DNA of 64,000 nucleotides from Proteromonas lacertae. Lineage: Eukaryota. Made by a program: the position numbers and the translations under genes. Positions 35,601-64,000 of the stretch are shown here, one piece after another. Under the pieces are notes generated by a model. The model did not search any database. It had not been told where the DNA came from and saw only the letters and a program-made list of their open reading frames with translations. The first letter of the stretch is position 1, and each line of letters starts with the position of its first letter. Location: the NCBI GenBank assembly GCA_002245135.1, contig NGBS01001173.1, positions 62,001-126,000 of the forward strand, in the 5' to 3' direction.

Positions 35601-38600
35601 TTACTTATCTTGTGGAGTAGTGGGGATGGTTCTAACCTTATCTTTCACTCTTCTCAATAACACTGTATGTTTTGATTCAAATATATCAGTCACTTTTGCT
35701 TTTTCTTGAATTATCTGAATAGCATCGTTTAATTCTTTCACATATCCTGCCAATTTGCTAATACCTTCACCATGACCAGTAAGAGTTGATTTAATTCTCT
35801 TCACTTCTTTCACTAACGATTTACCAATCTCCAAACTGTTATTTTCTTTATCTTCAGATTTAATATCAAATTGTTTTTTCATTTTCTTCTTCTTTTCTTT
35901 CTTAAACAATCCATTAGCTGTCCAGTAAATCACACCATCTCTTCCTTCCATTTTTGTACCCCAATAATCTTCATCTAATAGTTCTAAAACAACTGATCTT
36001 CTTTTAATATCGAAATTATCTTTAGAATCAGTTTGCATACTCAAAATATCATCTACCATATATTCAGCCATCAAAATTTCCCAATTGATAACTGACTGTT
36101 CTCTCACTTTTGGATATAATTCTGCGACGATACCTACGAATAGTGATACCAATGCGATTGATAAGAAGACATATACTATGAAATAAATAGTATAAACGAA
36201 TCTTCTATCTAAATTATAGGTAATATCATAATTGTTATTGAATGAAGATGAGAATAATTGGAAGAAAACGTATAACAAATTTGAAAACTGTTCAACTTCA
36301 GCACTGTAGGAAACAGCATAGGAAATTGAAGTCATTAGTGTAATAAAGAAGAAAGCGAATAAATAAAGCATCACATCAATATCTCTTATAGTATCTATAA
36401 TTGCTAAAATCATAGGTCCCCATGTAGGAATATAACGGAAGAATTTAATCAATCTTAGACCATATAGGAATTGTAATACTGAGATGAAATCTAATTCGTA
36501 TTTCATAGTGGTTAGTATGCTGGAATAATCGGTGAAGGTTGTAGAGGAGAAATCGATTGTATAACTATTGATCTATTTAAATAAAATATAATTATATAAT
36601 TATATATATATACAATTTGACACAATATAAAATCCCATAGTAATAGTATTAAAATACATAAAATAATAATCCAATCAAACAATAACCAACCATCTTTAAA
36701 TTGATTTGAGAAACCTCTATTTCTATAAATATCTTTAACCTTATAATAAGCTTCATATAATAATTCACTAAGTAATGCAATATCGAAATAATACTATTCA
36801 AAAATAATGATAAATTAATAAAAATATAATAATATACTGATGGTGCATGTTGTAAATCAATGATATTACCAGATTCTACATACCAAGTAGGTTCAAATTC
36901 ACCTGTTTCTTCTTTATTACCAGATAATGTAACTAGTGCTAATCTTTGAGTTGATGGATTATAGAAATTGAATTTTATTTTCAATGATCTTGTCCATTCA
37001 TCTGTTAAACCATTTTGAACTAACTGTTGATATTCTAATTGAGCATTTTTCAAATTACCAATTGGTATATCTTTTTGAAAAGTTGTTTTTACTTTTCCTT
37101 TCATACATACCAAATCTTTATTCACTACTAAATCCCATTGACTACAACTGTCACTTTCATAAGAATCAATTTCTATTCTCATTGAACCAAATAAAAATGT
37201 ATTTCCATGATAAACAGTCATTCCATTCACTTTAGAAACTTGTAACATTCCATAATCATCAGGATTCAGCAGTACATCTGCTATATAGTTGTTGTAATCA
37301 TGATAATTGTATAATAAAAAGTAATTATATTGTGTTAAGTCATTTTTAACGAGAGTTTGATAAGCATTTTCAAAATCAGGTCTGTAGTTAGGAAATAATG
37401 GAGTAAAAGCGATATATAATATATAAAATGCAATAGCAACAATAGCAGGTATTAAACAGGCAGTTATTCCATAAACATTTCTTCTATGTTTCACTTCACC
37501 ACTTGTTGATAATAATTCTACCACTTTTGCTGCTCTTAATTTACTTTTAATTTGCTTTTCGGATTTCTTTTCACCAATTGCATTTTTCAACTGTTTTTTC
37601 CATTTTTCTTTTACTGTTAAAGTTTCATATCTACAAGCTTCATGGTCATCTTTCTTTTTTGGCGCTTTTATTCTTTTTAATTTCTTTTTATTACTGTTAT
37701 TATCATCATTATCATCTTTATCTTTCTTCCAACATAACCATCCACTTTTCTTCTTCTTCTTTTCATTATTATTATCATCTAAATTAATAATATCAATTCC
37801 ATTAGCAGAATCATCTTTATTCACCATACCATTGTCTTCCTTTTTCTCTTTCATTTCTTCATTAATTGTGGCTGTAACTTGCTTCAGTAAAGCTCTACCA
37901 TATGGAGAAATCAATGTTCCATCTTCTTCCATTGGATTTACTCCATGTTCTAACAATATCTGTATAACAGGAGTATGACCAGCTTTGACTGCTAAACTTA
38001 AAGGTGAATATTCACAATAATCAATAATCTTCTTATTCTTCTCATTATTTGTATTATTGTTATTATCTTCATCATTATCATTATCACTATCTTGATAACT
38101 ATCTCTACCAGTTTCTTTATTGATTCTTCCTGTTTTCATTCTATCAGTGTCTTGTGTTGATTCTCTATTAGTCATTGCTGATATGTTGTTACTGGTATTA
38201 TTATTATCATTTGAAGTTGTTGGAATTAATGGAGTTCCAGGTCTTGATCTTGATGACATAAAACCACCAGCACCACCTCTTCCACTTCTTAATTGGTCAT
38301 TACTATTACTACCCTCTTTGTTGTTATTATTACTTAACATCATACTGTTACCTAAACTACTCATTTCTTTCTGATGTTTTTGTAATTTTGCTATGGCATT
38401 CATAGATGATTCTCTTCTTGAACTTTGCATATTCTTTCTAGAAGAATTGATTGGTGAATTTACATTACTGTTTAATTCATCAGGATTTCTAAATACTGAT
38501 TTGATTAATGGATTATTATCTTTTGCTGGAGTTCTCATTACAGCATTTGGTATTTTTAATAATGGAACTGGTTCTATATTATTATTATTATTATTTCCTC

Positions 38601-41600
38601 CAGAATTATCATTATTAATAGATGGAGTATTTGGTGTTGTTGGTGATTCATTATTATTATCAATTCTTCTTGATACTGGATTAGGTGTTTTGATTAATAA
38701 TGATCTATTCATTGACATTGGGGATTCAGTATTGGAAGTAATATTCTGTATAATTGCACCTGAAAGTCTTTTATTTGTTGCACCTCTTGATAATACACTT
38801 GTACGTTTATTCGGTTTTGTTTTTGGTGTATTATTTTCTGTAGTTGGTGTATTATTATTTGTTCCATCTGATGGGAATTTCAAACCTCCAACTGGGTTAC
38901 TATTAGCATCAGGTGTTAATATAGATCCTTTTTGTAACGACTCTTTATTTTTATTCTTTTTTACCAACATACTTTTCTTCTTAGTAAATGCTGGTTCATT
39001 ATTATCTTTATCTTTATTTTTTCCTTTATTCTTACCTTTTGCTATTGCATCTATTTGTTTCTTAACAGAATCATTCTCATTTTGTTGTTGTTTATCATCT
39101 TCAATAGGTAAAACTTTACTAGTTCTAGCTGTAGCATGAAAGAATATATTATTACTATGTTCAATTCTACTATGCAAAGTATTCAAATCGACTGAATTAT
39201 CTCTTAATAATAACGCTAATATTTTATCATGTCCGTTTGCACATGCATGATGTAAGGCTGTGTAGCCGTTATTATCTTTCTCCAATACTTGTGCCCCAGA
39301 TCTTAACAATAAATCAACAATTTGATAATTACCTAAAAATACAGCTAACATTAAAGGAGTCATTCCTGTATTATCTTTAAGTTCAATATTCGCTTTGAAT
39401 TTAATTAATAATTCACAAACAGCTAAATGTCCTCTTTTTACAGCTAAATATAAAGGGAAATGACCATATTGTTTGTCTTTATAGTTTATATTTGCAACTA
39501 TATCATCATCTGATTGGATTAGTAGTGGAATAATATCGATTTGATCATTTCTACAAGCTCTATGTAAATACAAATTGAACAATTGTTTTTTCAATTTTTC
39601 TGTTTCTTTCATATTATGTTTTAAAGAGTGATAATCATCGTAAACATTAGCTGTAGAAATCAAAGCAGGATCTTCTCTTACTTGAACAAATGAATAACCT
39701 AACAACAAAATATCCCGAATTATCTCCAAATTATCCATTTGAAATGAACATTTTTCTTCATCTGATAAATACTCATATGGAACTAATAAATTCGATGTTT
39801 TACCTGTTGCATTACTATTCACATCTGGACTATATTTACATCCATTATCCATCATGTTCTTACTCCATATTTCATGTGTATTCTTTGATAATCCTTGAAT
39901 TAACATCAATAAATTAGGATCAATTTCTATATCATCTGTACATAATACAGCTGGATAATAATCTTCAGGAGTAGCTGTTTCATCCCAATCAGCTTTTGTT
40001 GCTTCAACAATACCTTCTTGTTCACATACTAATTCATATCCGAAATATTTAATCATTTTTATAGTATTTGTTACATCTTTTACATAATTCTTTCTTTCAT
40101 TCACTGTCATTGCATTCCAAGGAATTAACATCGGATCAATCATAGCATTTTCATCTCTTTGCATTCCTAATTGCCATCCTTCATCTATCTTCTCTCTCGC
40201 CCATAACTCATGTTCATTGATTGCTAAACATTCGATTAAATCCTTCAAATTATCATCATCTTCGATTAAGTTACTTGGATCTATAGGATGTGGTTGGTAT
40301 TTATAACCTTCAGTTTCTCGTTTATCTACACCCAATAAGGAGATACAGGTGTTTTTAGTACAGTTACAATATGTATCAGCGATTAAACCTTTATATTCAG
40401 TATCATGACCTTTATGGCATTTTTGATTGCAAATTAGACAGATGAATACATCGCAGGTTTTACATCGATACATATGTTGAGTGATTGGATTAGTGAAGTT
40501 GGCAAAAGCAAATGTACATGATTTACGATCTATATTATAATAATAATAAATGCAAAAAAGAAATAGATTTATACATTTTAATCTTCGAGTAAATTTCAAC
40601 AATAATTCATCTATTTCTATACTATTTTCATCAAATCTCAACAATCCTTCTACTACATCACTTTTTCCTGTTATTATCATATAATTCAATAATTTATAAA
40701 CTGCTTGACCTGTGCATCTAATTACTATGACTTCCTGCCATTATTAATGATTTACAACAAGCGATATCATCTTTTAATATCTAATAATAATATATATATT
40801 ACAATATATACAGCATAATCTAATTCACAATAACCTGTTTCTTCATTAATATCATTCAATTCGATAAAATTTGGCCATTCATTCATCACTATATCAATAA
40901 CTTCACTTTGGTTATTCCAAGCAGCAATATCGATCTAAATTACAATAATATTAAGAAATAAATATTTATATATACAATATTATAACCTTGTTTTAATCGA
41001 CGATTGATTAAATTCTTTTCTTTAAACATTTCACGATAATCTTCAGTCAATACACTATCAAATAAACCATATTTACAATTATAAAACAAACAATCCCAAC
41101 CACGATCATCTATATTTATCATTAATTGAAAGATTTTGGCTTTCTTCTTTAGTTTTTCATTGATTATGTTGAACATCTTTTCAGTTACATTTTTATCACT
41201 ATGAATGGATAAAGATATACAATTTGCATGATATCTAGATTTGGCTTGAGATTTGACTTTACTGTTACTTAATAATAGTGAAACTATTTCATAATTTGCC
41301 ATTTCACAAGCGATCATTATTGGAGTATAACCATCAGTATATGAAGGTAAATTCAAATCTGCACAACCTGAAGTTATTATCTTTTCAGCAATCTATTCAA
41401 CAAATTAATATATATATATATATACTTCAGTTCTATTTAATCTACAAGCTAAATGTAATGGAGTATCACCCATTATATTCTGAATATTCATTCCAATTTC
41501 ATAATTAAATAACAAATCAACTAAATTACTTCTTCCAGATTTAACTGCACAATGATATAGATTCTCATCCAAAGGAGCACATTTTCCATTTATCTTTACA

Positions 41601-43027: not shown

Positions 43028-44224
43028 ATGTTCTCTTCTTGGTTGAACAATCACAAATTTGAGGTATTAATATTTATTTATTTTTAATTTTGTGATTTAG
43101 TTATTGAGTGATAGAAGTAATAATAGGATGTGTAAAATTCGAGATGCATCTAAGAATTCAAAGAGATTGTTGAAAGTGATGAATGTAAGTGAGTTAGATC
43201 CAGATATAGTTGATGAAGTAGTATTAATAATGAATAAAATGAACAATTTGAATATTAGTGGTTTAATGAAGTATAAATTAATCGAAAATGACGAAAATTG
43301 TTTGTATCTAGTGATGAGAGAATATAAAACTCACTTAGATAGAATTAATCCTTTCAAGTATTATGAAGAAAGTGGTTCATTTGAAGTCTTGAAAGGAATT
43401 TTAATGGTATTGAAAAGCTTAAATGAAACAGGAACAATTCACAGTGATTTAAAACCATCCAACATATTTATAACTGATGAAAATGAAATTAAGATAAGTG
43501 ATTATTGTATTAATTTATTATACAAAGGAAGAGAAGGTAAAAAATTTGCAGGAAAGATGGAAGATTTATGTTTTATTTGTTATGATGAATTATTAGGAAA
43601 AGAGTTAGATATAAGTAGTGATATATGGAATTTTGGATTGGTGTTTTACTATATAGAAAGTGGAAAATATCCATTTGTTGGAAAAAATATGTCCGAGACA
43701 TTATTAAATATATTAAATATCAATTATATTCCATTAAGCAGTGAAACTGACAGTGATGGATTAAACAAATTTCTAAGAAAAGTGTTAGTAAAAGAAAAGA
43801 AAGATCGTTTAAAACTAGATAAAATATTGAAGGAATTGAAGAGTATATATAATTGTAAGTTTTATAATTAAATAGGATTAAATGAACCAGAACTTCCAGT
43901 AACTCCTCATGAAGTAGAAGATCTTTTAATTCCACCAATTCCAATTATAATAGGAAGTACAAAAGTTGCTGATTGGATGAGTATATAAATAAATATATAA
44001 TTATTATTATTAACTAGAAAATTGTATTGATTCTAAAATCAGTCAATGTAAAAACTCTAATGAAAATGAGTTGAATTTTGATGGATGTATATATATATAT
44101 AACAGTTATTAAATATTATATAAATAGTGGAAATGAAAGATGAAGAGATGAAGTATTTATTTTCCTCACTTGATACAATGAAGAATATTATAAAAATAGA
44201 TGTGAGTAGTATAATAATAATAAT

Positions 44225-44256
<32 letters not shown>

Positions 44257-44832
44257 TATAGGTCAACAGTTAAGTTCAATTGGATTTACTTTCTTCTCTT
44301 ACAGTCTGAAATTCTTTCCAAATTTAGAGCAATTATTATTAAGTTGGAATTCAATTGGAAATGGTGAAGGTTTTAAACCTTTTTCTGAGAATGTTCATTT
44401 CATTCCTAAATTAAAAGAATTAGTAATGGTCAGTATTATATATATTATTATTATTATTATTATTAAATAGAGTGTGATTTGAGAGATAGTGATATTAAAT
44501 ATTTATCTTCACATTTTGAGGATATTCATAATTTAGAGAGATTAAATTTTTCGAGTATTTTTATAATAATAATAATGTTAATAGATAATAAAATAGGTGA
44601 TTATGGAGTGAAGTGTATATGTGATAGTATTGATGAATTAACAAGATTACAAGATTTACATTTGGAGAATAATGAAGTTGGTGATAAAGGAGGAGAAATA
44701 CTGCTAGAGAATCTTGATAAATATAAAAATTCAAGATGGTTGTATATCCATCACAACAAAATGTCAAATTATGATGATTTCATTGAAAAGATGAGAGAAA
44801 AGTATCCAGACAAAAGTTTAAAGATAATGTAA
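43028..44832 (+). CDS. Pseudokinase plus RNase-inhibitor-type LRR protein
   Basis: ATG at 43028 and a 37-nt intron at 43064-43100. The kinase fold has HSDLKPSN, DYC in place of DFG, DIWNFG and no Gly loop. A Pro-rich linker precedes 28/29-aa LRRs (LEQLLLSWNSIG, LQDLHLENNEVGDKGG). LRR exons of 171 nt (44262-44432) and 84 nt (44471-44554) are bounded by phase-1 introns. Confidence 0.85.
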
Positions 44833-45104
44833 GTAGTTTTTTGTTTTTTATTATTGTTTATTTCATTTAACATTCTTTCTTTAGTGATTTTAATACAATG
44901 CTATTATTCAATTCAGATTAAGTGATCAGTACAATTTATCAAGCGCATTCCGTTGAATGTATAGTAACAGAATCGGAAAGGAAATGAATAAGAAGAAAAG
45001 AAGAAAAAATATACTCAAGCCTTAGTGTAAAAAGCTCGAGATTTTTCAAATAGTTACTTTTTAGTTCTTTTTGTAGTTATATTTAATATTGCTCATTGAA
45101 ATCA

Positions 45105-48100
45105 ATGAATTCACTTTCTAGTTGGTTAAATAAACGCAAATATGAAGTATAATTATCATTTATGTAATGTTTTAAAATTTTAGTTGTTAAATGATAAAAA
45201 TATCAGTAGATTATGTAAAATTCGAGATATTTCAAGCGATTCAAAGAAATTATTGAAAGTAATAAGCCTGAATGAGTTAGATCCAAAATCAGTTGATGAT
45301 GCAGTAACCACCATGAACAATGTGAATAATTTGAATATACCCGGATTGATGAAGTATAAAATAATTGAAAAAGATGGAAACTACTTATATAGAATAATGA
45401 CAGAACATGAAACTCATTTAGATGAAATAAATCCAATAAAATACTTTTCAAATCATGATTCATTTAAAGTAATGAATGGGATACTGACAGTATTGAAGGG
45501 ATTGTATGAAAATGGAACAATTCACAGTGAATTAAAACCATCTAACATATTTTTGAAGGATAAAGATGAGGTAATAATAAATGATTATTGTAACAATTTA
45601 TTATATAAAAGAAGAGAAGGTAAAAGAATATCAAAGATAGAAGATTTATGTTTTACTTGTTTAGATGAGTTAGTTGGAAAAGAACTTGATGTATATAGTG
45701 ATATATGGAACTTTGGTTTAATACTCTATTATATAAAGAGTGGTAAATATGCATTTCGTAGTTTAAATATATTACAAACAATAGACAATATACGAGACAT
45801 AAAATATGTTCCATTAGACTGCGAATATGACAAAGAGTTAAACTCAATTTTGGGTAAAGTGTTATGTAAAGAAAAAAAGAATCGCTTAAAACTTGATCGC
45901 ATAATGACTGAAATACAAAGTATTGATGTTTAATAATTATTATTTAGAATTGAATAAGGCTGAACTTCCAACAGTTCCATTTCAAGTAGAACCAGAAATT
46001 CCTGCAATCCATTTTGATATAGAGAGTGTAGAAGGCTTTGCAGATTTAGAAGAATATAGAAGAGCAATTCTATACTTTAAACGAGCATTGGAATTATCTA
46101 CCACAAATAAAGATAAATCAGATAATAATAACCAAATTGGTATATGTCATTTCAAAATGGTATATATATATATATATATATATATTCTTCTATACAATGG
46201 ATAATTAGAATGAATATAAAGAAGCTATTCCTTACTTCAAAAGTTCGCTAGAGTTTTCAGAATTAGATGATATGAAAAATGTTACTAATAGAAACATAGG
46301 TGAAAGTTATTATGGGATGGTATAGAAATAATACTATAGCTATAATAGAAAGAATTTAAAGAGGCTATTAAATATTATAAAACATCTTTAGAGTATAGTT
46401 CATCAGATGAGATAAAATGTAAGATTAGTAATCGTATTGGTTTATGTCACTTCAATGTTGTATATATACAATATTTAATAATTATAGAAAGAATACGGAG
46501 AGGCAATTCCATATTTTAAAACAGCTTTAGAATATTCATCATCAGACGAAATGAAGTTTGAAAATAACAACCAAATTGCTTCATGCTTTTTTAATTTAGT
46601 ATAATATTAAGATGATATTTACAACATATCTTAGAAAGAGTATTTAGAAGCAATTCCTTACTATAAAGCAACAATAGAGTATTCTTGTTCAGATGATGAA
46701 ATAAAGTCAAATAGTTATAGCATGATTGGTTTATGTTTATTTTTAATGGTATAGAATCAATATATAATTTTGAAATAGAACAAATATGAAGAAGCAATTA
46801 CATATTATAAAAGTGCATTAGAATATTCTTCATCAAATGAGATGAAAGAAGTATTTAGTAAGACTGTAGGTAATTGTTATTATAATTTGGTATACTTAGT
46901 ATTGATTTAAATTCAAATAGGATAATTATGTTGATGCAATTCCATATTATATAAGCGTATTAGAAAAATCTTCATCAGATGATGTAAAAGCAGAAGTTAA
47001 TCAGAATATTGGTAATTGTTATATACAGATGGTATAATAACTTGAATGTAATATTGAATAGGATAAATACAAAGAAGCTATCCCTTATTATAAGTCTGCA
47101 TTAGAAAACTGTTCATCAGATGAAAAGAGAGAAGTTCTTAATCAAAATCTTAGCTTATGCTACTATAATCTTGTATAATAACCAAATCATAATAATAAAT
47201 AGAAAGAATATAAAGAAGCAATTCCATATTTTAAAAACATATTAGAGAATACATCAAAAAATGATGTTAAATCAAATATTAACAATAAAATTGGTTTATG
47301 CTATTTCTATGTTGTATAAATTCATTAAACTATTATTGGATAGAATGAAAGTTCAAATGCAGTTATGTATTATAAGGTTGCTTTAGAGTATTGCTCATCA
47401 AAAAAAATGAAGGAAGTTATTAATCAAAATATCAGTTTGTGTTTATATAAGAACGTATTGAAAATGATATATTCCATTGTATAGAAAGATTTTGAAGAAG
47501 CTATTCCTTATTATAAATATGTAATAGATAATTCTTCATCAGATGATAATAAGATATCCAGTAGCATTCAAATAGCTCTATGTTATTTTAATATGGTATT
47601 TAACACATTGCTATATATAAATAGAAAGAATATATGCAGGCTGTTCCATATTTCAAATATGTATTAGAAAATTCTTCATCAGATGATGATATAAAAGAAA
47701 CATTCAATCAGAATATTGGTAATTGTTATATACAGATGGTATAATAACTTGAATGTAATATTGAATAGGATAAATACAAAGAAGCTATCCCTTATTATAA
47801 GTCTGCATTAGAAAACTGTTCATCAGATGAAAAGAGAGAAGTTCTTAATCAAAATCTTAGCTTATGCTACTATAATCTTGTATAATAACCAAATCATAAT
47901 AATAAATAGAAAGAATATAAAGAAGCAATTCCATATTTTAAATACATAGTGGAGAATTCTAAATCAAATGATATAAAAGAGATATTCAATCAAAATGTTG
48001 CTAATTGTTATTATAATATTGTATAAAAGTCATAATATAATCATTATATAGAAAGAATATAAAGATGCAATTCCTTATTATAAGGCTGCTTCAAAATATT

Positions 48101-48516
48101 GCTCATCAAAAGAAAAGAAAGTATATTGCAACAACCAAATTGGTTCATGTTATTTTGATATGGTATGCATTTAACAAATAATAATTTTAGAAAGAATATT
48201 CTGAGGCAATTCAATACTTTAAAACTTCATTAGAATATTGTTGTTCAAACGACATAAAATCAAGCACAAATAACAAAATTGGTGTATGTTATTTTAATCT
48301 GGTATAAAACACTATATTATCATTTAAATAGGAAAAATATGATGAAGCAATTCCTTACTATAAGGAAGCATTAAAATATTCAACTACAACTCACATGAAT
48401 GAAGTGATTAACCAAAATATAGGAGTCTGTTATCATACTATGGTATAAATAATATAAATAATATATGATTATAGGGTGATTATAATGAAGCGAAAAAATA
48501 CTATAATTTCGAGTAG
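45105..48516 (+). CDS. Pseudokinase plus TPR-array protein (20 exons; 16 internal single-repeat exons)
   Basis: ATG at 45105, introns at 45147-45183 and 45920-45947. The kinase is paralogous to the upstream gene (HSELKPSN, DYC). Then come 16 exons of 111 nt (two of 114 nt), consensus KEYxEAIPYYKxALEYSSSDxxKxxxNxxIGxCYFxM, separated by phase-0 introns. The last exon is 48475-48516. Confidence 0.9.
46999..47942 (+). repeat. Perfect 237-bp direct duplication inside the TPR array (46999-47235 = 47706-47942)
   Basis: The identical sequence includes two introns (gtataataacttgaatgtaatattgaatag and gtataataaccaaatcataataataaatag) and one full exon, at an offset of 707 bp. Confidence 0.9.
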
Positions 48517-48768
48517 TTTGAAGAATTATATCATTCTATAAAATATATTAATAAATTGGTTATTCATATTTCTATGTGATTATATTTCAATTACATAACA
48601 ACACCCTTTTTAATTTCTACTCATTGCATTTTTAACAATTCTAAAATGTTAATGAGAATATATTTTTAAGAAGATATTTGTTTTATTTGTTATGATGAAA
48701 CATATATTCTTATTATTTTTATAACAGATTTATAATAAAATACAAATAAAACATAAAAAATAACAAAA

Positions 48769-51700
48769 TTATTCTATAAACTTCCATATCTCAATCTCAT
48801 TTTCACTTGAAACTATTATATCTTCACCATTTAGATTATATTTTATATTATATATTGGATCATAACCATGATTTATATGACATATTAAATCTATTATTAT
48901 AATAATAAATAGAAATATACCAAATGTCTGTGGGTTTATAACAACAATACATCCATTATAAGTACAAAATGATAAATACATAATCTTATTGTTTTTCAAA
49001 CTAAATCCATAATCCATATCAACTATCCAACTCTCTAAATCGAAACTATATTCTTCATTTCCACTTGAATAATTATATTTTATTAAAACTGGTGGATAGG
49101 CATTACTAGTTAGATAGATTATGTTGTTTTCTATTGGAGAGAATAATCCTAAAGTTGGAGTAGCTGGTCTTTCATTGTTTAACATTATTTTATCACTCTT
49201 TTTATCATTAATTTTAAATATATCAATTGGGCTTGGCTCGTTTTCAATACTAAATATTATTATTATTAAATAAAAAAAATATATATACATTTTCCACACT
49301 GAGATTTGTCTACTTCGACTTGTACATAAGAATATGTTATTATTATTAACATTCACTATACTGGTGTCAATCTCACTATCTTTATTCAACATATATTTAT
49401 CATTTAAATCAATTGTATGACTAGAAAATCGTAGCTTTATATTATTATTATTTTCATTATCATCTTCATATTCTAACATTGTATAACCAATACAACCATC
49501 AATTGTACCAACAATTATTCCACTACTTTTATCATTTACAAAACATACACTACTAATTGGAGTTGTATAAGGCCTCATATGATTCAAATATTGATTAGTA
49601 TATAAATTGTAGAATAATACTCTACCATCATTTAAACCAATGCAAATTGGTATTAATTCATCATCTATCTCATTACTTATATCATAACAACTTATCTCTA
49701 GAATATTTTCATTATTTAAATCTTTTCTTAATTTGATTTCTTCCACTTTTATATTTGTATTACAATCCCAGAAATTCATTACATCTTTATTACAGGTTAT
49801 ATATAATAGATTATTTAAACAGTATTTCAGTTTTAAACCATCAATTTCACATTTGTTAATATATTTTGATAGTTTCTTTTCATTTATATTTAATTCATAG
49901 ATTTCATTATTAGAAGTTCCAATAAAACAAGCATAATTGGTTTCTTCAATTGATATTGCTTTAATATATCCATTTATGGAGATATAGCTACTGTTTGGTT
50001 GACCTTTCATTAGTTTCAATGATTCTCTCATCTTACAGATATATAATCCATCAAATAATCCACTTATATATAGTTTATTATCAATCCAAATCATCTTATT
50101 GATTTCTGCATCTAATGGCCAGTGATTGTAAACTTTACCATGACTATCACATAAGTAGAGAAAGTGGTTCTTCTTACTGATTATAAACTTACGATTTTCA
50201 CTTCTTACTATTTAAATATATCAATAATATATATATACATCTTTTAGGTTTTCTTACTATATAAGTAATTTCACTTTTATCAGTTATTGATTCATATATT
50301 ATATTATGACTTACGATCTCAGGTTTGTCATATTCACTCATTATATCACATATATACAAATCATTATTGATTGAATATAATAGCGTTGTATTCTCTAACC
50401 AAATTATATGATTTACTGCTTTTTCACATTCAAAATTATAGATTTCGCTGGAGATTAGATCGTATATTTCAACTATTCCATTCTCACTTGTAACACACAT
50501 AAATCTTCCACTTTCATTAAAACTCATTTCGTTAATATAGGAAGAGTAATTGTGTTTAGATATAAGGGTGTATTTGTTTTGAGTTAATCGATAGAATAGT
50601 AATATTGAATGACTTTCAGAGAATATATCACATATTACACTTAATGTACAAGCTATATAAAAATATTAATATAAAAGGAAAAAAGATTATATATATATAT
50701 ATATATACAATTTTTACAATATTTGATTGTTCTAACATATCCTTCACAGAGTATTGATATTTGATTTCTTGTTTCTATTTCATGCATAATAATCCTTTGG
50801 TTGATCGTATATAATAATTGATGATATTCACTTAACCATATGATATTATCAACTCCATTACCATTATAACCTAATACATTATGTAACTTTAACTTATTAT
50901 TGATATCTATATCATATTCACCTATACTCTCGAATAGAGTGTTTATTTCATTATTATCTTCATTTTCTTCTTCTTCTTTTTCTATTTCATTATTATCCCA
51001 TTCATATTCAATATTATTATTATCATCATTATATACATCATCTATTGGAAATGATGTTTCTGTGTTATTTCCAGTATGTATTTCAACAGTATTATCCATT
51101 TCATTATCTTTATCATTATAATCTTCTTCTTCTTCTTCTTCTTCTTCATTATCTGTATTAGTTGTATTTGTATTTGTATTTGTATTTAATGATTTACTAC
51201 TAAATATCCCATTCTCTATTTCTACATTTTCATCACTTTCATTGTTATTTATTACACTACTCACAGTTTGAATAGTTGAACTTATATTATCTAAATTATT
51301 ATTATTATTTATTATATTATTAATATTGTTATTATCTTCTACTGAATTTAATTCATTATTATTATTATTATTATTATATTCATTAGGTGGAGGTAATTCA
51401 CTACCACTATAACTTTCTTCACCATTATCAGAATACACTGTACTACTTGTATTATCTGTATTTGTTATTATAATATGATCATTATCATAATCATTCATAG
51501 TTACATCAGGACTCATAACAATTGGTTTAATATCACTTTCACCTTCATTACCATAGAATTCCCAAATATATAAACAATTAGAATCATCAATTGAACTAAT
51601 ATATCTTCCATTATTACTTATTTTAATATCTTTTACTTTACCAGTATGACCTATAAACGATTGATAAGATGCATTTGGACCTCCTGTTTTCAATAGCATA

Positions 51701-58454: not shown

Positions 58455-61400
58455 ATGAAAATTCTGCTTACTTTCATCTTCTTATTCAACCTTTGTAGTT
58501 GTTTAAAAATTAATGTTGGTTATCTATACGATGGTGCAGCTAATTATTATGATTTGTTTCAAAAATTAGGTTGATAGCTACCAGTCAGAATTGAATATAG
58601 CAATAACTCCAACAGATAAAGATGCAAGCTGATCATGACAAATATGAAGCTGCTGTACAACAATTAAAAACTAGTAAGATAACTATTGCGTTTGGGACAT
58701 TTGAAATGGATGATCCTGCTTGGTATGATGATATTGCTAGATCGGCTGGAGTTTATATATTCAACAGTTTGTTAAATTACAATGTTACCGTCTGCCTTAC
58801 TAATATTATAATTAATCGTTCTCCATGCGATTCAGATAATTCAGGTATTCATTTGGTATATATTATATAGGCTCTGAACACTTTTCTCAAGAATTTAAAG
58901 TCCATACTGTATTTGTTTCTGAAAACTCACCTGTACAACCTTGTTTAGAAGATGCTGGTCAATGCGTAAAGTCAAAAGGATTTGATTTGAATGAGATTAA
59001 GTATGATGCTACTACTGTTGAAGATGAGTTTATAAAAGTGAAAACTAATTATCCAGAAGGATCTACTATATATGTATATGTAGAAAAAGCTCAAGAAACT
59101 GCATTAGTTACAGCATATCAAACTGCAGGACTAACATCTGACAAATATCCTCTTGTTTTCTTTCATGATGCTACTTACTCAGATATTATAAGTAATGCAT
59201 TCAATAAAGGTCATTATTTAATGACTGAATTACACGATTTATCAATGGATGCAAATATTGAAGCATTAATGGAAGTGAATGGTGATAAGAATCACAGAAA
59301 TTATGATGCTTTATACTTGTATGATAATTTAGTTTTTATTTCTTAAAAATAGATTAGGAATGATTCATATATACTTCAACAAAGCCAAATCATTAGATTC
59401 TACTGATACTGCAAGTATTATCTATGGATTATATTATACAAACTACAAAATCAACAACACTGAATTTGAATTGTTTCCTAACAATCGTGTTATGACAAAT
59501 TCATTATTAATTAAATTCAATGGAGCTAATACTGAACCAGATGTTACTGTTTTACCAATGCCAGATAGAATACAATACAGTACATCTCCTGGTCGTCCAG
59601 CTATTAATATATGTAATCATTTAGATGATAATCCAATAGCTTCTGCTATTTATGTCATTTTTATGGTTTATACTTCTGGTGAATATAAAGAAGTTGAAAG
59701 GGGTATTTTAGATGCAATGTCTGTTGCTGTAAAATATATTAATGGAAATAGTATGTTGCTAAACAAAGAAATTGTTCCTATTTATATTGATGCTAATCAA
59801 GAAGTTGATGTTATTATAAAAGCTACCAATCAAATAGAAGAAAAACTAAAAGTTGTTGCTCTATTCACCACTTTGGTATTGGATGATTTTAATACAATTA
59901 TAGAAAGTATATATTTATTATTTATTGCTATATTCATATAGAAAAACAATTTACATATCCAGTTTATTCATTGTTAAACACACCTGGTGAAAAGTGTACT
60001 AATACTTATTTATCAATATCTTTTTTATTTTCTATTTACAATATATTATTATGATTCTTTAACTTTATATAAACTGGTCTACCAATATCATTATCCTTTG
60101 AAATTGTCAATGAAAACTTCTTAAGAAATCAAAATCCAAATGTATTTGTCTTATACAGTGATAAATACTTTGGAAGTGTTGCTTATGAAGCTTTAAGCAC
60201 TTTAATCGTAAATGAAAACATTAATAAAATTGGTGAATATATGTTTGAAGAAAACACAGCTGCTCAAAGTGTAAATGCTTGTTCATCAATATATGAAAGT
60301 TGTACTGATAGTATATATTTTATCTATATTTATTTTATATATATAGATTGTTATATTATTGATATTGCTGAAAGAGAATATGATACATTATTCTTTTCCA
60401 ATTGTTTTATGAGTAATACATCAATCATGAAATCTGAAAGATTTACAGTATTTTCATTTACTGTGGATGAAAATGAGTTAAATATTTTGAAGGATTTACC
60501 AGAAGTAAGTGGTAATATATCCAATTTAGACGGTCATTATGTAGTTTCATATTACTTTGATTCTATGGATAGTGAAATTGGCAAATCAATAAAAGCATCT
60601 TTAAAAGAAAATTTCTATTATAAAGAGTTTACTTCAATTATGGCAACTGCATATAATACTATTTTCTTATGGGAAGAAGCTGTAAAAATTGCTCATTCTT
60701 TTGATTATGAACTAGTTAAAAAGTATTGATATTATTTTATTAGTATTAATATTTTTTATTGTAGATCAATTACTCAAACACATTATGAAGGTGCTGGAGG
60801 AAAATTTTCAATTAATAAGAAAGGTGTAATTAGTGCACAAATCCACATTGGAATTGTATTAATATTATATATATTTATTTATTTATATTTCTATTTAGAT
60901 AAACAATGGAACAATACAATTAGTTTCTTATAGTTATTACTTAACTAATGGATTTGTTTTTACAAACAGAGATCAAACATGTGATTATCAATCTGGAATT
61001 GCATCAGCACAACCAACAAAATATGTTGGATTCTTTGTGAATAGTGATGGTTATATTGGACAATTAATGAATGCTTATACTAAAGCAATACCTATTGTTG
61101 TTGATTTCTTAAACGATCAAGGAGGTTCAAATGGAATTATTATTCAATTGTTATATTTAGATATAGAAAAATTCAACAATGAAGAATATATGAATGAAAT
61201 GGATAAAAAAGTATTAATCTATCTTGGAACTAATTCAAACGATTTTAGAAGTAGAGTTCAACAATTTGTATATAAGAAAAAGAAGATGTTATTTAGTTTA
61301 ATGCCAGTAACAGGTGAACAATGTTTATCAAATGTTATTAATGTTGGTAGACTTCCTCATCATTATCATCCTCATATGTTGGTTTATCATTTCATTCGAT

Positions 61401-64000
61401 CTGTTAATTGTGCTTTTGTTGCTGCTTGGGATGAGTATATTTATTTGTGTTATAATATTTGTTATAGAAATGATTATGGAACTTCAATAGCGCAATTAAT
61501 TTATCAAGCTGCTAAAACATACAAGGGAATTAATTGTAGTTATTTTATGTTTAATGGTACTGAAGGAATATCTGATTTAGTTGGTAATTTAACTGCAAAT
61601 GTTTCTCAAGATGCAACAATTTTTACTTTTGCTGGAATATTTACTGAAAATTTATTAGGTGAATTATATAGTTTAGATAGTAATTATACTATTGTTTTAG
61701 CTGATCAATTTGAATCTTTAATAGTAGAAAGTAAACATCAAGAATACTATAAAGGAGTTTATATTGCAAGTAGTTATTTATCAGAAGATAATAGTAATGA
61801 GAATTATGTATTAAAAGATTTGATAACTAACCAATATGGTATTGTTACACACTGTATGAATGAAATCACTACAAAAATGTATATTACTAATGTATTTAAT
61901 TATCTAATAATAGTCAAGCTTCTATATTATTCTTCAATGACGCTGTTGCTAAAACTGGTTCAACTGATCCATTTACCATTAGAAAACAATTTTATAAACT
62001 TACAGAATCAACTGCTCAAGGTGATACAACTATCGATAATAATAATATTATGTCAACTAAGTTCATAATGGGTAGAGTAAATGATGATTATGGAATTGAC
62101 ATTGTTGCTAAGTCACCATATCCATTACTAGTTAATCCATTCTCTGAATATGTATATTTTTATTTGATTATATATAGCTGACTAATTTTCAAGAGTATAA
62201 AACTTGCAAATTTGAGGAGATGGTTGAATCAGATTCTGATGTTTATAATGAAGATGCTTATGTAGTTGATGATGATGTTCTAAGAGTTGAAATTATTATA
62301 AACGAAGGACAAGAAGATTTAACACTGTTTCTAGTTTTATCCACAATTTTAATGAAACAGAATAATAATGGAGGATTTTTAGATAGAAAGATAGTTGCAG
62401 AAAGATTATATTGTCCTAAAACAAACTCAACAGAAGACATAGAAACATTAGAAATAGAAATAGAGAATAGAACATCATCATTTCTTATTAGTAACTGCAA
62501 AGAAGAATTGATACAACCTGTCTTTGAATATTTCGTAGGTAAGAATATCTTGTTCTTTGATATAACTGATAGTGATGCTACAAATTGTGTTAATAATATG
62601 TATGTTTATATATATATATTTAATATATAGTCTTGTATTTGGTTCAACACCTCCTCAACGTACAATTCCTAATTTGTTCTATTTAAGAAAGACAAGAGAT
62701 GATTTTTACTTCCTCATATTAGCACCTGAATCATATAAAACATCCAATGAAATACAATTAGTTACTTCAATGATAAATGAATTAACTGGAACTTATAGAA
62801 CTTTTTATGTTTCAACAACTGATGAGATTATATCAACAATGCAAAATTCAAGAGTGTATTTTTCATCAGGTTTTATTGTATTGAATTATCTTACAGGTGA
62901 TTTATTCCGTGATGTTTATCAATGTTTGAATGAAACTTACAGTGATTTAGATAAAGAGTATTTTGAACAGCATTATATAGTTGTTACACCGAATGGTGAT
63001 GAATTTAGAAAATTACCACCAGCATTATCACATCATAATCTTTTAATTACATCTTATTTTGTTGATCATATTGAAGGAAATATTATGTCTTCAGGATTAC
63101 ATAACTTACTTGGAAATGATCATTTTATTACAGAAAATGAATTGAAGGTATATGTTGCTGCAGATTATTTCTTAAATGCTTTACTTTCATGCTTATCTGA
63201 GAATGTGACAATATTAAGAGATAAAATAATAGAAACTCATTATACAACACCAATTGGAGATGTCAATATTCGTGAATCATTATATCCTGATTTACCTGTC
63301 ATTTTATTAACTTCAAATAATGGAAAAGTAGAATTGGAAGCTGTATTGTCTAAACAATGGCATTCTGAATTATTCAGAAGAAATGCATTTAATCCAACAT
63401 CATATTCAACTTGTAGTTATACATCCTCTCATTTTATTGAATATGAATATACAAAGATTATATTAGCTTTACCAATAAGTGGTGAATTGAAAGAATATGG
63501 TGCAGATACAGTAATTGGATTATATGCAGGAGTTGATAAAGTCAATTATGATGCTAGTTATGATGCAAGAACATTATTATCTCATGTTGTTGATATTGGC
63601 TCAGATACAGAAACATTAGTTGAGAAGTTAACAAATGCTACAGAGAAATATAATTCATCTGTTATATTTGGATTATATGGAAGTGATCAAAGAAAAGCAA
63701 TAATGCCATTACTACATGATGAAGATGATGAATTGATGTTATTCTATTTATTTGATAATGAAGGTGAAGAATGTGATTCTAATATAGTTTATATGGGACC
63801 TTCTGTTTATAGTAATACAATATTAATACCATGGATTCAATCCAATCTTGGCAATTCATTAATTATATTGTATCATACAACCACTGAACAACAAGCTATG
63901 TATAGATATTATAAAAGACATTTAGAATTAAGAGGAATGACATTAGTTGATGCTGTTCCAATTAATTTAGGAGTTACTGATATGTCTTATATTGTGAGTA
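58455..64000 (+). CDS. Secreted/membrane protein with at least 5 tandem UrtA/AmiC-like periplasmic-binding (Venus flytrap) domains; runs off the window
   Basis: Signal peptide MKILLTFIFLFNLCSC. Repeated type-I PBP motifs, e.g. LALPISGELKEYG...VVDIGSDTETLVEKL...VIFGLYGSDQRKAIMP...EGEECDSNIVYMG. About 10 introns; two +1 shifts are needed near the 5' end. Confidence 0.75.
60016..60072 (+). other. Probable U12-type (minor) intron with AT-AA termini
   Basis: A 57-nt AT-rich insert with two in-frame stops and no AG acceptor. It starts ATATCTTT and has a branch-like TTCTTTAAC at 60055-60063. Removing it restores GEKC-x7-G spacing. Confidence 0.65.

What the first reader, a model, noticed from the sequence alone, without database searches (positions are those of the whole stretch)
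46160..48516. One-exon-one-TPR cassette array with all phase-0 mini-introns
Sixteen consecutive 111/114-nt exons start at 46209, 46349, 46488, 46635, 46779, 46921, 47062, 47203, 47344, 47485, 47625, 47769, 47910, 48052, 48191 and 48332. They are separated by phase-0 introns (mostly 28-36 nt) at an identical repeat position. Any exon can be skipped, duplicated or swapped without a frameshift. Scaffold residues are fixed and the positions between them are highly variable. The array is invisible to the ORF track.
Basis: seen in the sequence. Interest (0 to 1): 0.7.

Follow-up and report, generated by a model that had tools for sequence, protein, structure and literature searches.

The report
Kinase-TPR gene, one intron per repeat
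A microbial eukaryote's predicted gene for a likely inactive kinase with a tail of 17 helical repeats carries a tiny intron at the same spot in every repeat, a layout known from brown algae and ciliates that likely grew by DNA duplication and recombination rather than to make many splice variants.

Summary
The array is real: all 16 exons sit at the stated coordinates (14 x 111 nt, 2 x 114 nt), with phase-0 GTAT...TAG introns. It is the tail of a 937-codon gene model (45105-48516): degenerate kinase, proline linker, 17 TPRs. Each intron falls mid-TPR, so an exon is helix B plus the next helix A. Uniform phase follows automatically from duplicating a 141-bp unit. The one recent event, a perfect 237-bp copy, begins and ends inside exons, which points to gene conversion, not intron-bounded shuffling. 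I found no orphan exons and no positive selection (omega 0.20). Splicing and skipping are untested by reads; skipping would need 168-189-nt excisions where the modelled introns are 28-53 nt. The layout is known from Ectocarpus and Tetrahymena, and this scan noted it before on other DNA. More interesting is the context: the tandem paralogue joins the same kinase-like domain to LRRs, unnamed relatives carry LRR or SPRY-like tails, and the TPR unit recurs behind a membrane-like segment. This suggests an unnamed pseudokinase family with exchangeable binding domains; its function is inferred.

The parts
45105..45146 (+). Predicted first exon (14 codons) of the kinase-TPR gene
   Evidence: Matches the paralogue's first exon; 37-nt phase-0 intron follows in both genes
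45184..45919 (+). Exon for a degenerate protein-kinase domain: no glycine-rich loop, Glu in place of the catalytic Asp (HSELKPSN), DYC for DFG
   Evidence: Pfam Pkinase E 1.6e-16; motifs; PDB profile hits to Ser/Thr kinases
45948..46159 (+). Exon for a proline-rich linker plus the first repeat unit (46049-46159)
   Evidence: Gene model; nhmmer hit E 3.7e-13; weak TPR_1 match
46209..48442 (+). 16 exons of 111 or 114 nt (starts 46209, 46349, 46488, 46635, 46779, 46921, 47062, 47203, 47344, 47485, 47625, 47769, 47910, 48052, 48191, 48332), each helix B + loop + next helix A, separated by 28-36-nt phase-0 introns
   Evidence: helical hairpin model, pLDDT 95; register
46999..47235 (+). Copy 1 of a 237-bp identical tract: last 33 nt of exon 6, intron, exon 7, intron, first 33 nt of exon 8
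47706..47942 (+). Copy 2 of the tract: end of exon 11, intron, exon 12, intron, start of exon 13
48475..48516 (+). Last exon: closing helix B and stop codon
43028..44832 (+). Tandem paralogue, 511-codon model: same kinase-like domain, linker and first two intron positions, followed by LRRs with phase-1 introns (exons of 69, 81, 171, 84 and 248 nt)
   Evidence: Model; 71% nt identity over 910 bp; Pfam Pkinase and weak LRR_6/LRR_4

Best explanation
The array is the tail of a predicted 937-residue protein with a likely inactive kinase domain and 17 TPRs, likely built by tandem duplication of a 141-bp exon-plus-intron unit and likely spliced to one main product. Shown: exon-intron layout, open frame, TPR register, degenerate kinase motifs, and one recent identical tract whose ends lie inside exons. 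Inferred: an intron sat in the turn between helix A and helix B of a founding repeat and was copied passively with it, which fixes phase and position in every copy. Occasional homologous exchange between coding scaffolds (gene conversion or unequal crossing over) makes chimeric repeats. The protein would work as a binder or sensor: the TPR superhelix binds partners through its variable concave face and the pseudokinase acts as scaffold or switch. The family likely changes specificity over evolutionary time by swapping and remodelling the C-terminal domain (TPR here, LRR next door).
For: 937-codon open model with 19 GT-AG introns. Splicing at these sites gives the two-residue spacing of consensus TPRs between helix A and helix B. 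Exons average 65% nt and 46% aa identity, with no relation to distance (rho -0.03, p 0.74): an old array. The only long exact repeat is 237 bp at an offset of 5 units; just outside it the paired exons match at 55 of 78 and 46 of 78 nt, against 33 of 33 inside, and the other pairs 5 units apart are 57-78% identical: a local tract, not a block duplication. Helix-B and helix-A halves have discordant trees (0 of 150 random partitions as extreme). Omega 0.20, M1a vs M2a p 0.97. All 17 units found in the window are intact, in frame and on the + strand. Retaining any of the 17 introns gives a premature stop. Unequal crossing over and gene conversion are proposed for Tetrahymena exon arrays (PMC6564038, sections read).
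Against: No transcript or second allele was examined, so constitutive splicing and stable order are inferred. With the second tract copy removed the partition test is only borderline (7 of 150), and a run test on exons found no significant tract (best global p 0.15), so recombination rests mostly on one event. Splice variants that combine repeat exons are reported for brown-algal ROCO genes (PMC11378527, section 15). In Ectocarpus, Klebsormidium and Bigelowiella skipping was associated with short introns (PMC6142364, passages). Groove positions reach pN/pS of 1.0 in pairwise counts, so weak diversifying selection is not excluded by a 37-codon test. No ligand or pathway is known; kinase inactivity is read from motifs only.
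Confidence: 0.65

Rival explanations
1. The gene makes a repertoire of isoforms by skipping exons, as proposed for brown-algal repeat receptors.
For: All exons are 3n and phase 0-0. Skipping removes one B-A hairpin and would keep a continuous TPR solenoid (inference). Splice variants are reported in Ectocarpus ROCO genes. Some non-animal species link skipping to short introns.
Against: A skip needs a 168-189-nt excision, while all 26 introns modelled in the two genes are 28-53 nt. Unicellular eukaryotes generally skip rarely and show no 3n enrichment (PMC6142364, passages). In the short-intron ciliate Paramecium bursaria retention and alternative 3' sites are the most often regulated events (PMC12862383, passages). 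Splice sites are uniform consensus sites (17 of 17 GTAT and TAG).
Confidence: 0.12
2. The locus is an actively diversifying immune-like receptor: alleles and paralogues exchange repeats fast enough to give population-level or somatic variation in specificity.
For: One very recent tract. Sensor swap between tandem paralogues. The same 37-aa unit occurs in another gene, P0010, whose two intron-like spacers are nearly identical while its two units differ at 15 of 37 residues, 9 of them in helix A. LRR and SPRY-like tails in relatives.
Against: Most exons are deeply diverged, unlike recently scrambled arrays. No inactivated or inverted spare exons, the Ectocarpus hallmark. No positively selected class. 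The three variants P0010-P0012 differ only by point changes over their two units.
Confidence: 0.18
3. The array is real but the 237-bp identical tract is an assembly or polishing artefact, and the array is static.
For: The assembly looks error-prone in repeats: 48 of 124 spacings in the nearby 21-kb coding repeat are not multiples of 3.
Against: The TPR array has no frameshift, and both copies join cleanly to different in-frame flanks that are 59-71% alike.
Confidence: 0.05

Closest known systems
Ectocarpus NB-ARC-TPR and LRR-ROCO genes (Zambounis et al. 2012, PMC3341825; abstract, part 2 of Results, part 1 of Discussion read)
   Same: One repeat period per exon in a TPR (or LRR) domain fused to a signalling domain; local duplications of exons within a gene; some LRR exon types there are also offset from the repeat.
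   Different: Here the partner is a degenerate kinase, not NB-ARC or ROC-COR; units are 37-38 aa, not 42; introns are about 30 nt and hold no spare exons; no diversifying selection detected.
Tetrahymena 90-bp-exon LRR genes (Xiong et al. 2019, PMC6564038; abstract, section 17, part 2 of Discussion read)
   Same: Protist tandem exon-intron units with one intron phase, expanded by ectopic recombination or gene conversion, mostly under purifying selection, sometimes fused to kinase domains.
   Different: LRR, phase 2, thousands of genes, retrotransposon link; here TPR, phase 0, standard genetic code, family size in this genome unknown.
Giardia Nek pseudokinase-ankyrin expansion (Manning et al. 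2011, PMC3218828; passages read)
   Same: N-terminal, mostly inactive kinase followed by a variable repeat array that is gained and lost among relatives.
   Different: Ankyrin repeats there, TPR or LRR here; assignment of this domain to Nek is not established (weak fold hits to NEK2, TTK and NEK7 from a low-confidence model).
Podospora hnwd allorecognition genes (Chevanne et al. 2010, PMC2873952; abstract only)
   Same: Repeat arrays rearranged by recombination, creating new repeat variants.
   Different: STAND-WD40 proteins under concerted evolution with measured instability; here the repeats are deeply diverged and no instability was measured.

Membership tests
TPR repeat protein | Tandem helix A-helix B repeats with the TPR small/large residue pattern | tested here: met
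   Pfam TPR_1 matches 11 of 15 exons scanned at E<0.05, each below the curated cut-off because an exon holds half-repeats; exon profile hits consensus TPR structures at E 9e-13; two-helix model. Period is 37-38, not 34.
Ectocarpus-type NB-ARC-TPR | NB-ARC domain N-terminal to the TPRs | tested here: not met
   The N-terminal domain is Pkinase; the model leaves about 35 residues of linker between kinase and first repeat.
Ectocarpus-type NB-ARC-TPR | One repeat period per exon, frame-symmetric | tested here: met
   16 of 16 exons; 37-38 aa instead of 42.
Ectocarpus-type NB-ARC-TPR | Inactivated spare repeat exons in introns | tested here: not met
   nhmmer over both strands of the window: 17 units, all coding; next hit E 0.09.
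Ectocarpus-type NB-ARC-TPR | Diversifying selection on repeat exons | tested here: inconclusive
   M1a vs M2a p 0.97, but only 37 codons and 16 diverged units; groove pN/pS 1.0.
Ectocarpus-type NB-ARC-TPR | Alternative splicing of repeat exons | not testable with these tools
Tetrahymena 90-bp-exon LRR genes | 90-bp LRR exons with phase-2 introns | tested here: not met
   TPR exons 111/114 nt, phase 0; paralogue LRR exons 81-171 nt, phase 1.
Exon-intron unit arrays expanded by ectopic recombination (general kind) | Same intron position and phase in every repeat, with sequence traces of exchange between units | tested here: met
Pseudokinase | Kinase fold lacking catalytic motifs | tested here: met
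   No Gly before the beta-3 Lys, HSE for HRD, DYC for DFG; sequence criterion only. The paralogue keeps the Asp (HSD).
Pseudokinase | No phosphotransfer activity | not testable with these tools
   Needs an assay.
Giardia-type Nek pseudokinases | Nek-family kinase domain with ankyrin repeats | tested here: not met
   No ankyrin repeats in either gene model; best PDB profile hits are SNRK, CDPKs and NEK1 at similar weak scores.

The most novel reading that the evidence does not exclude
This is one member of an undescribed repertoire of intracellular pseudokinase receptors in a lineage of microbial eukaryotes, in which LRR, TPR and SPRY-like sensor domains are swapped behind one degenerate kinase, the same TPR exon-intron unit moves between kinase-linked and membrane-anchored genes, and within-exon recombination (perhaps with exon skipping) keeps generating new binding surfaces: an innate-immune-like system with no NLR ATPase.
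Probability: 0.2. Interest if true: 0.65.

Novelty: new variant of a known kind. Interest (0 to 1): 0.35.

Why it matters
The layout itself is known, and this case shows why it should not be read as a splicing cassette by default: phase symmetry comes free with duplication, and the one visible exchange cuts through exons. If the wider reading holds, a single-celled eukaryote has a family of pseudokinases with exchangeable binding domains, parallel to Giardia Neks and algal receptors. The gene is also a clean test of whether a spliceosome tuned to 30-nt introns ever skips a frame-neutral exon.

Tried and rejected
No whole genome is held for this window, so paralogues could not be counted. Sequencing-run search on 43100-50200: none was listed, no RNA holder listed; this says nothing about expression, and no reads were laid. 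Kinase query against longer proteins: 0 of 1674 candidates at E<=1e-10 (weak evidence). Metagenome scan: 79 loci kept, best segments 20-37% identical, taken as generic kinases and not examined further. A crude window-wide intron census was too close to its shuffled control to use. A recalled Blastocystis downstream motif was not at the gene ends checked. The organism was not identified: standard code, about 26% GC, centriole-type genes (WDR90, FOP dimer, TTL family). First M2a fit failed numerically and was redone with bounds. Kinase model is low confidence (pLDDT 55.5), so its fold hits show only a kinase fold. Five-unit block duplication rejected. Alternative donors 3 nt upstream in exons 2 and 8 exist but break the register. 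Intron-intron identities (mean 66%) are uninformative in such AT-rich DNA, except the two identical pairs. The spliced protein was not folded or scanned whole against Pfam, so the full-length fold is inferred from single exons. Own-scan look-ups by place and sequence were empty.

Full report
Observation. Each follows TAG and is followed by GTAT after 111 nt (14 exons) or 114 nt (exons 4 and 11). The 17 introns from 46160 to 48474 are phase 0; 16 are 28-36 nt and the first is 49 nt. The exons hold 0 stops in 594 codons, against a mean of 58.7 in 1000 shuffles. No RNA was examined, so the splice sites rest on sequence, open frame and protein register.

Register. Pfam TPR_1 positions 15-31 align to exon residues 1-17. 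A profile of the units hits designed consensus TPR structures (best E 9e-13), with helix B at the exon start and a weak helix A match at the exon end; the modelled junction restores the two-residue gap of the consensus. A single exon folds as a two-helix hairpin (pLDDT 95). So each exon is helix B, a loop and the next helix A, and the intron sits in the A-B turn. With the unit at 46049-46159 and the last exon at 48475-48516 the protein has 17 full repeats of 37-38 residues.

The gene. Three upstream exons give an open 937-codon model from 45105 to 48516. The N-terminal domain is a protein kinase by Pfam (E 1.6e-16) but has no glycine before the beta-3 lysine, HSE for HRD and DYC for DFG: a predicted pseudokinase. 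Directly upstream lies a paralogue (43028-44832, 511 codons) with the same domain, linker and first two intron positions (71% nt over 910 bp). Homology fades in the linker, and the paralogue continues into LRRs with phase-1 introns. One kinase-like module therefore carries two unrelated repeat tails side by side. The organism is unidentified: standard code, about 26% GC, centriole-type genes.

How the array arose. If a unit with a 3n coding length and one intron is duplicated head to tail, every copy has the same intron position and phase; this is arithmetic, and needs no selection for modularity. Exons average 65% nt identity (range 52-100) and 46% aa, with no trend with distance, so most copies are old. 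One stretch is recent: 46999-47235 equals 47706-47942 exactly. It starts 33 nt before the end of exons 6 and 11 and stops 33 nt into exons 8 and 13; outside it the pairs match at 55 of 78 and 46 of 78 nt. Other pairs five units apart are 57-78% identical, so this is a local tract, most simply gene conversion, and it made chimeric exons. Trees of the helix-B and helix-A halves disagree (0 of 150 random partitions as extreme with exon 12 dropped; 7 of 150 with exons 11-13 dropped). A run test within exons gave no significant tract (best p 0.15 in 500 permutations). Recombination is thus shown once and only hinted at beyond that. An assembly artefact is possible but unlikely.

Variability. The most variable columns include TPR positions 1, 2, 3, 13, 18 and 26; positions 2, 5, 6, 9, 12, 13 together have pN/pS 1.0 against 0.68 overall (15 exons, exon 12 dropped). 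Variation at 2, 5, 9, 12, 13 is the general TPR pattern (PMC1261162, passages). My own codon-model fit on 16 units by 37 codons gave omega 0.20 and no positively selected class (LRT 0.07, p 0.97); power is low and the tree was fixed. No spare or inverted exon exists in the window (17 hits, all coding).

Skipping. A skip needs a 168-189-nt excision; the 26 introns modelled in the two genes are 28-53 nt. Retention of any of the 17 introns stops translation early (15 inside the intron, 2 in the next exon). A 65-species survey found skipping rare outside animals and without 3n enrichment, but names Ectocarpus, Klebsormidium and Bigelowiella as species where skipping went with short introns (PMC6142364, passages). 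Paramecium bursaria mostly regulates retention and 3' sites (PMC12862383, passages). Brown-algal ROCO genes do have splice variants (PMC11378527, abstract and section 15; the 2023 NB-TPR paper it cites was not seen). I put regulated skipping at about 0.12.

Relatives. The paralogue's kinase domain found 5 proteins among 784 candidates, 4 of them at 51-71% identity, all unnamed Logan products. The representative search gave 4 hits at E<=1e-30 and 116 at E<=1e-10. I scanned 27 of the 150 listed with Pfam, picked by score and length: 6 carry LRRs, 1 a weak SPRY match (E 0.007), none a TPR match; one has a Pro/Gly-rich tail. In a quick tree, the two window domains and 29 hand-picked degenerate relatives separate from 20 canonical HRD/DFG kinases (SH-aLRT 100; long branches, careful search unfinished). 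The TPR unit profile found 1 protein among 7986 scored candidates, P0010, with two near-identical cluster mates. It has a hydrophobic segment (19-residue mean hydropathy 2.25) and two 37-aa units, 19 and 20 of 37 identical to the best window exon, each preceded by a 10-11-residue V...Q spacer at the intron position. Of 233 proteins held, only these three match the unit profile.

Comparison. Exon-per-repeat TPR and LRR domains are described in Ectocarpus (PMC3341825; abstract, part 2 of Results, part 1 of Discussion) and Tetrahymena, including kinase fusions and gene conversion (PMC6564038). Pseudokinase plus variable repeats is described in Giardia (PMC3218828, passages). Repeat reshuffling by recombination is shown in Podospora (PMC2873952, abstract). 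This gene works like these but fails their defining features (no NB-ARC, no spare exons, not LRR phase 2, no ankyrin). Searches listed no title describing this kinase-like family or a kinase-TPR exon array; the library is partial and no supplements were read, so that is weak. PMC10690189 (passages) was read for lineage context only. Four earlier notes of this scan describe the same layout in other genomes; they were not used as evidence.

Verdict. Real, well-formed and of a known kind; the diversity-generator reading is unproven and the visible evidence favours slow DNA-level remodelling. Interest 0.35, mainly for the exchangeable-tail pseudokinase family and the mid-exon tract.

Noticed in passing
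window 43028-44832 (+): Tandem paralogue with the same degenerate kinase and linker but an LRR tail whose phase-1 introns fall about once per 27-28-residue repeat; one 171-nt exon spans two repeats.
   Followed up: yes
window 11439-32598 (+): About 129 copies of a 162-168-bp acidic coding repeat, 97% alike; 48 of 124 measured spacings are not multiples of 3, either uncorrected long-read errors or a decaying repeat.
   Followed up: partly
window 36649-40740 (-): 1363-codon open frame with a zf-UBR-like segment, two RyR domains, ankyrin repeats and a hydrophobic segment, continuing into channel-like membrane exons near 35601-36793.
   Followed up: no
P0013, P0024, P0025, P0029, P0032, P0039, P0046, P0058, P0064 (unnamed Logan proteins): Degenerate kinases related to the window's, with LRR, SPRY-like or Pro/Gly-rich C-terminal regions: an unnamed family with exchangeable tails.
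   Followed up: partly
P0010-P0012 (unnamed Logan proteins): Same 37-aa TPR unit behind a hydrophobic segment, with stop-free intron-like spacers that are more alike than the units they separate.
   Followed up: partly
window 58607-62630 (+): Multi-exon gene with a weak periplasmic-binding-protein match (Peripla_BP_6, E 0.001), apparently several such domains in a row.
   Followed up: no
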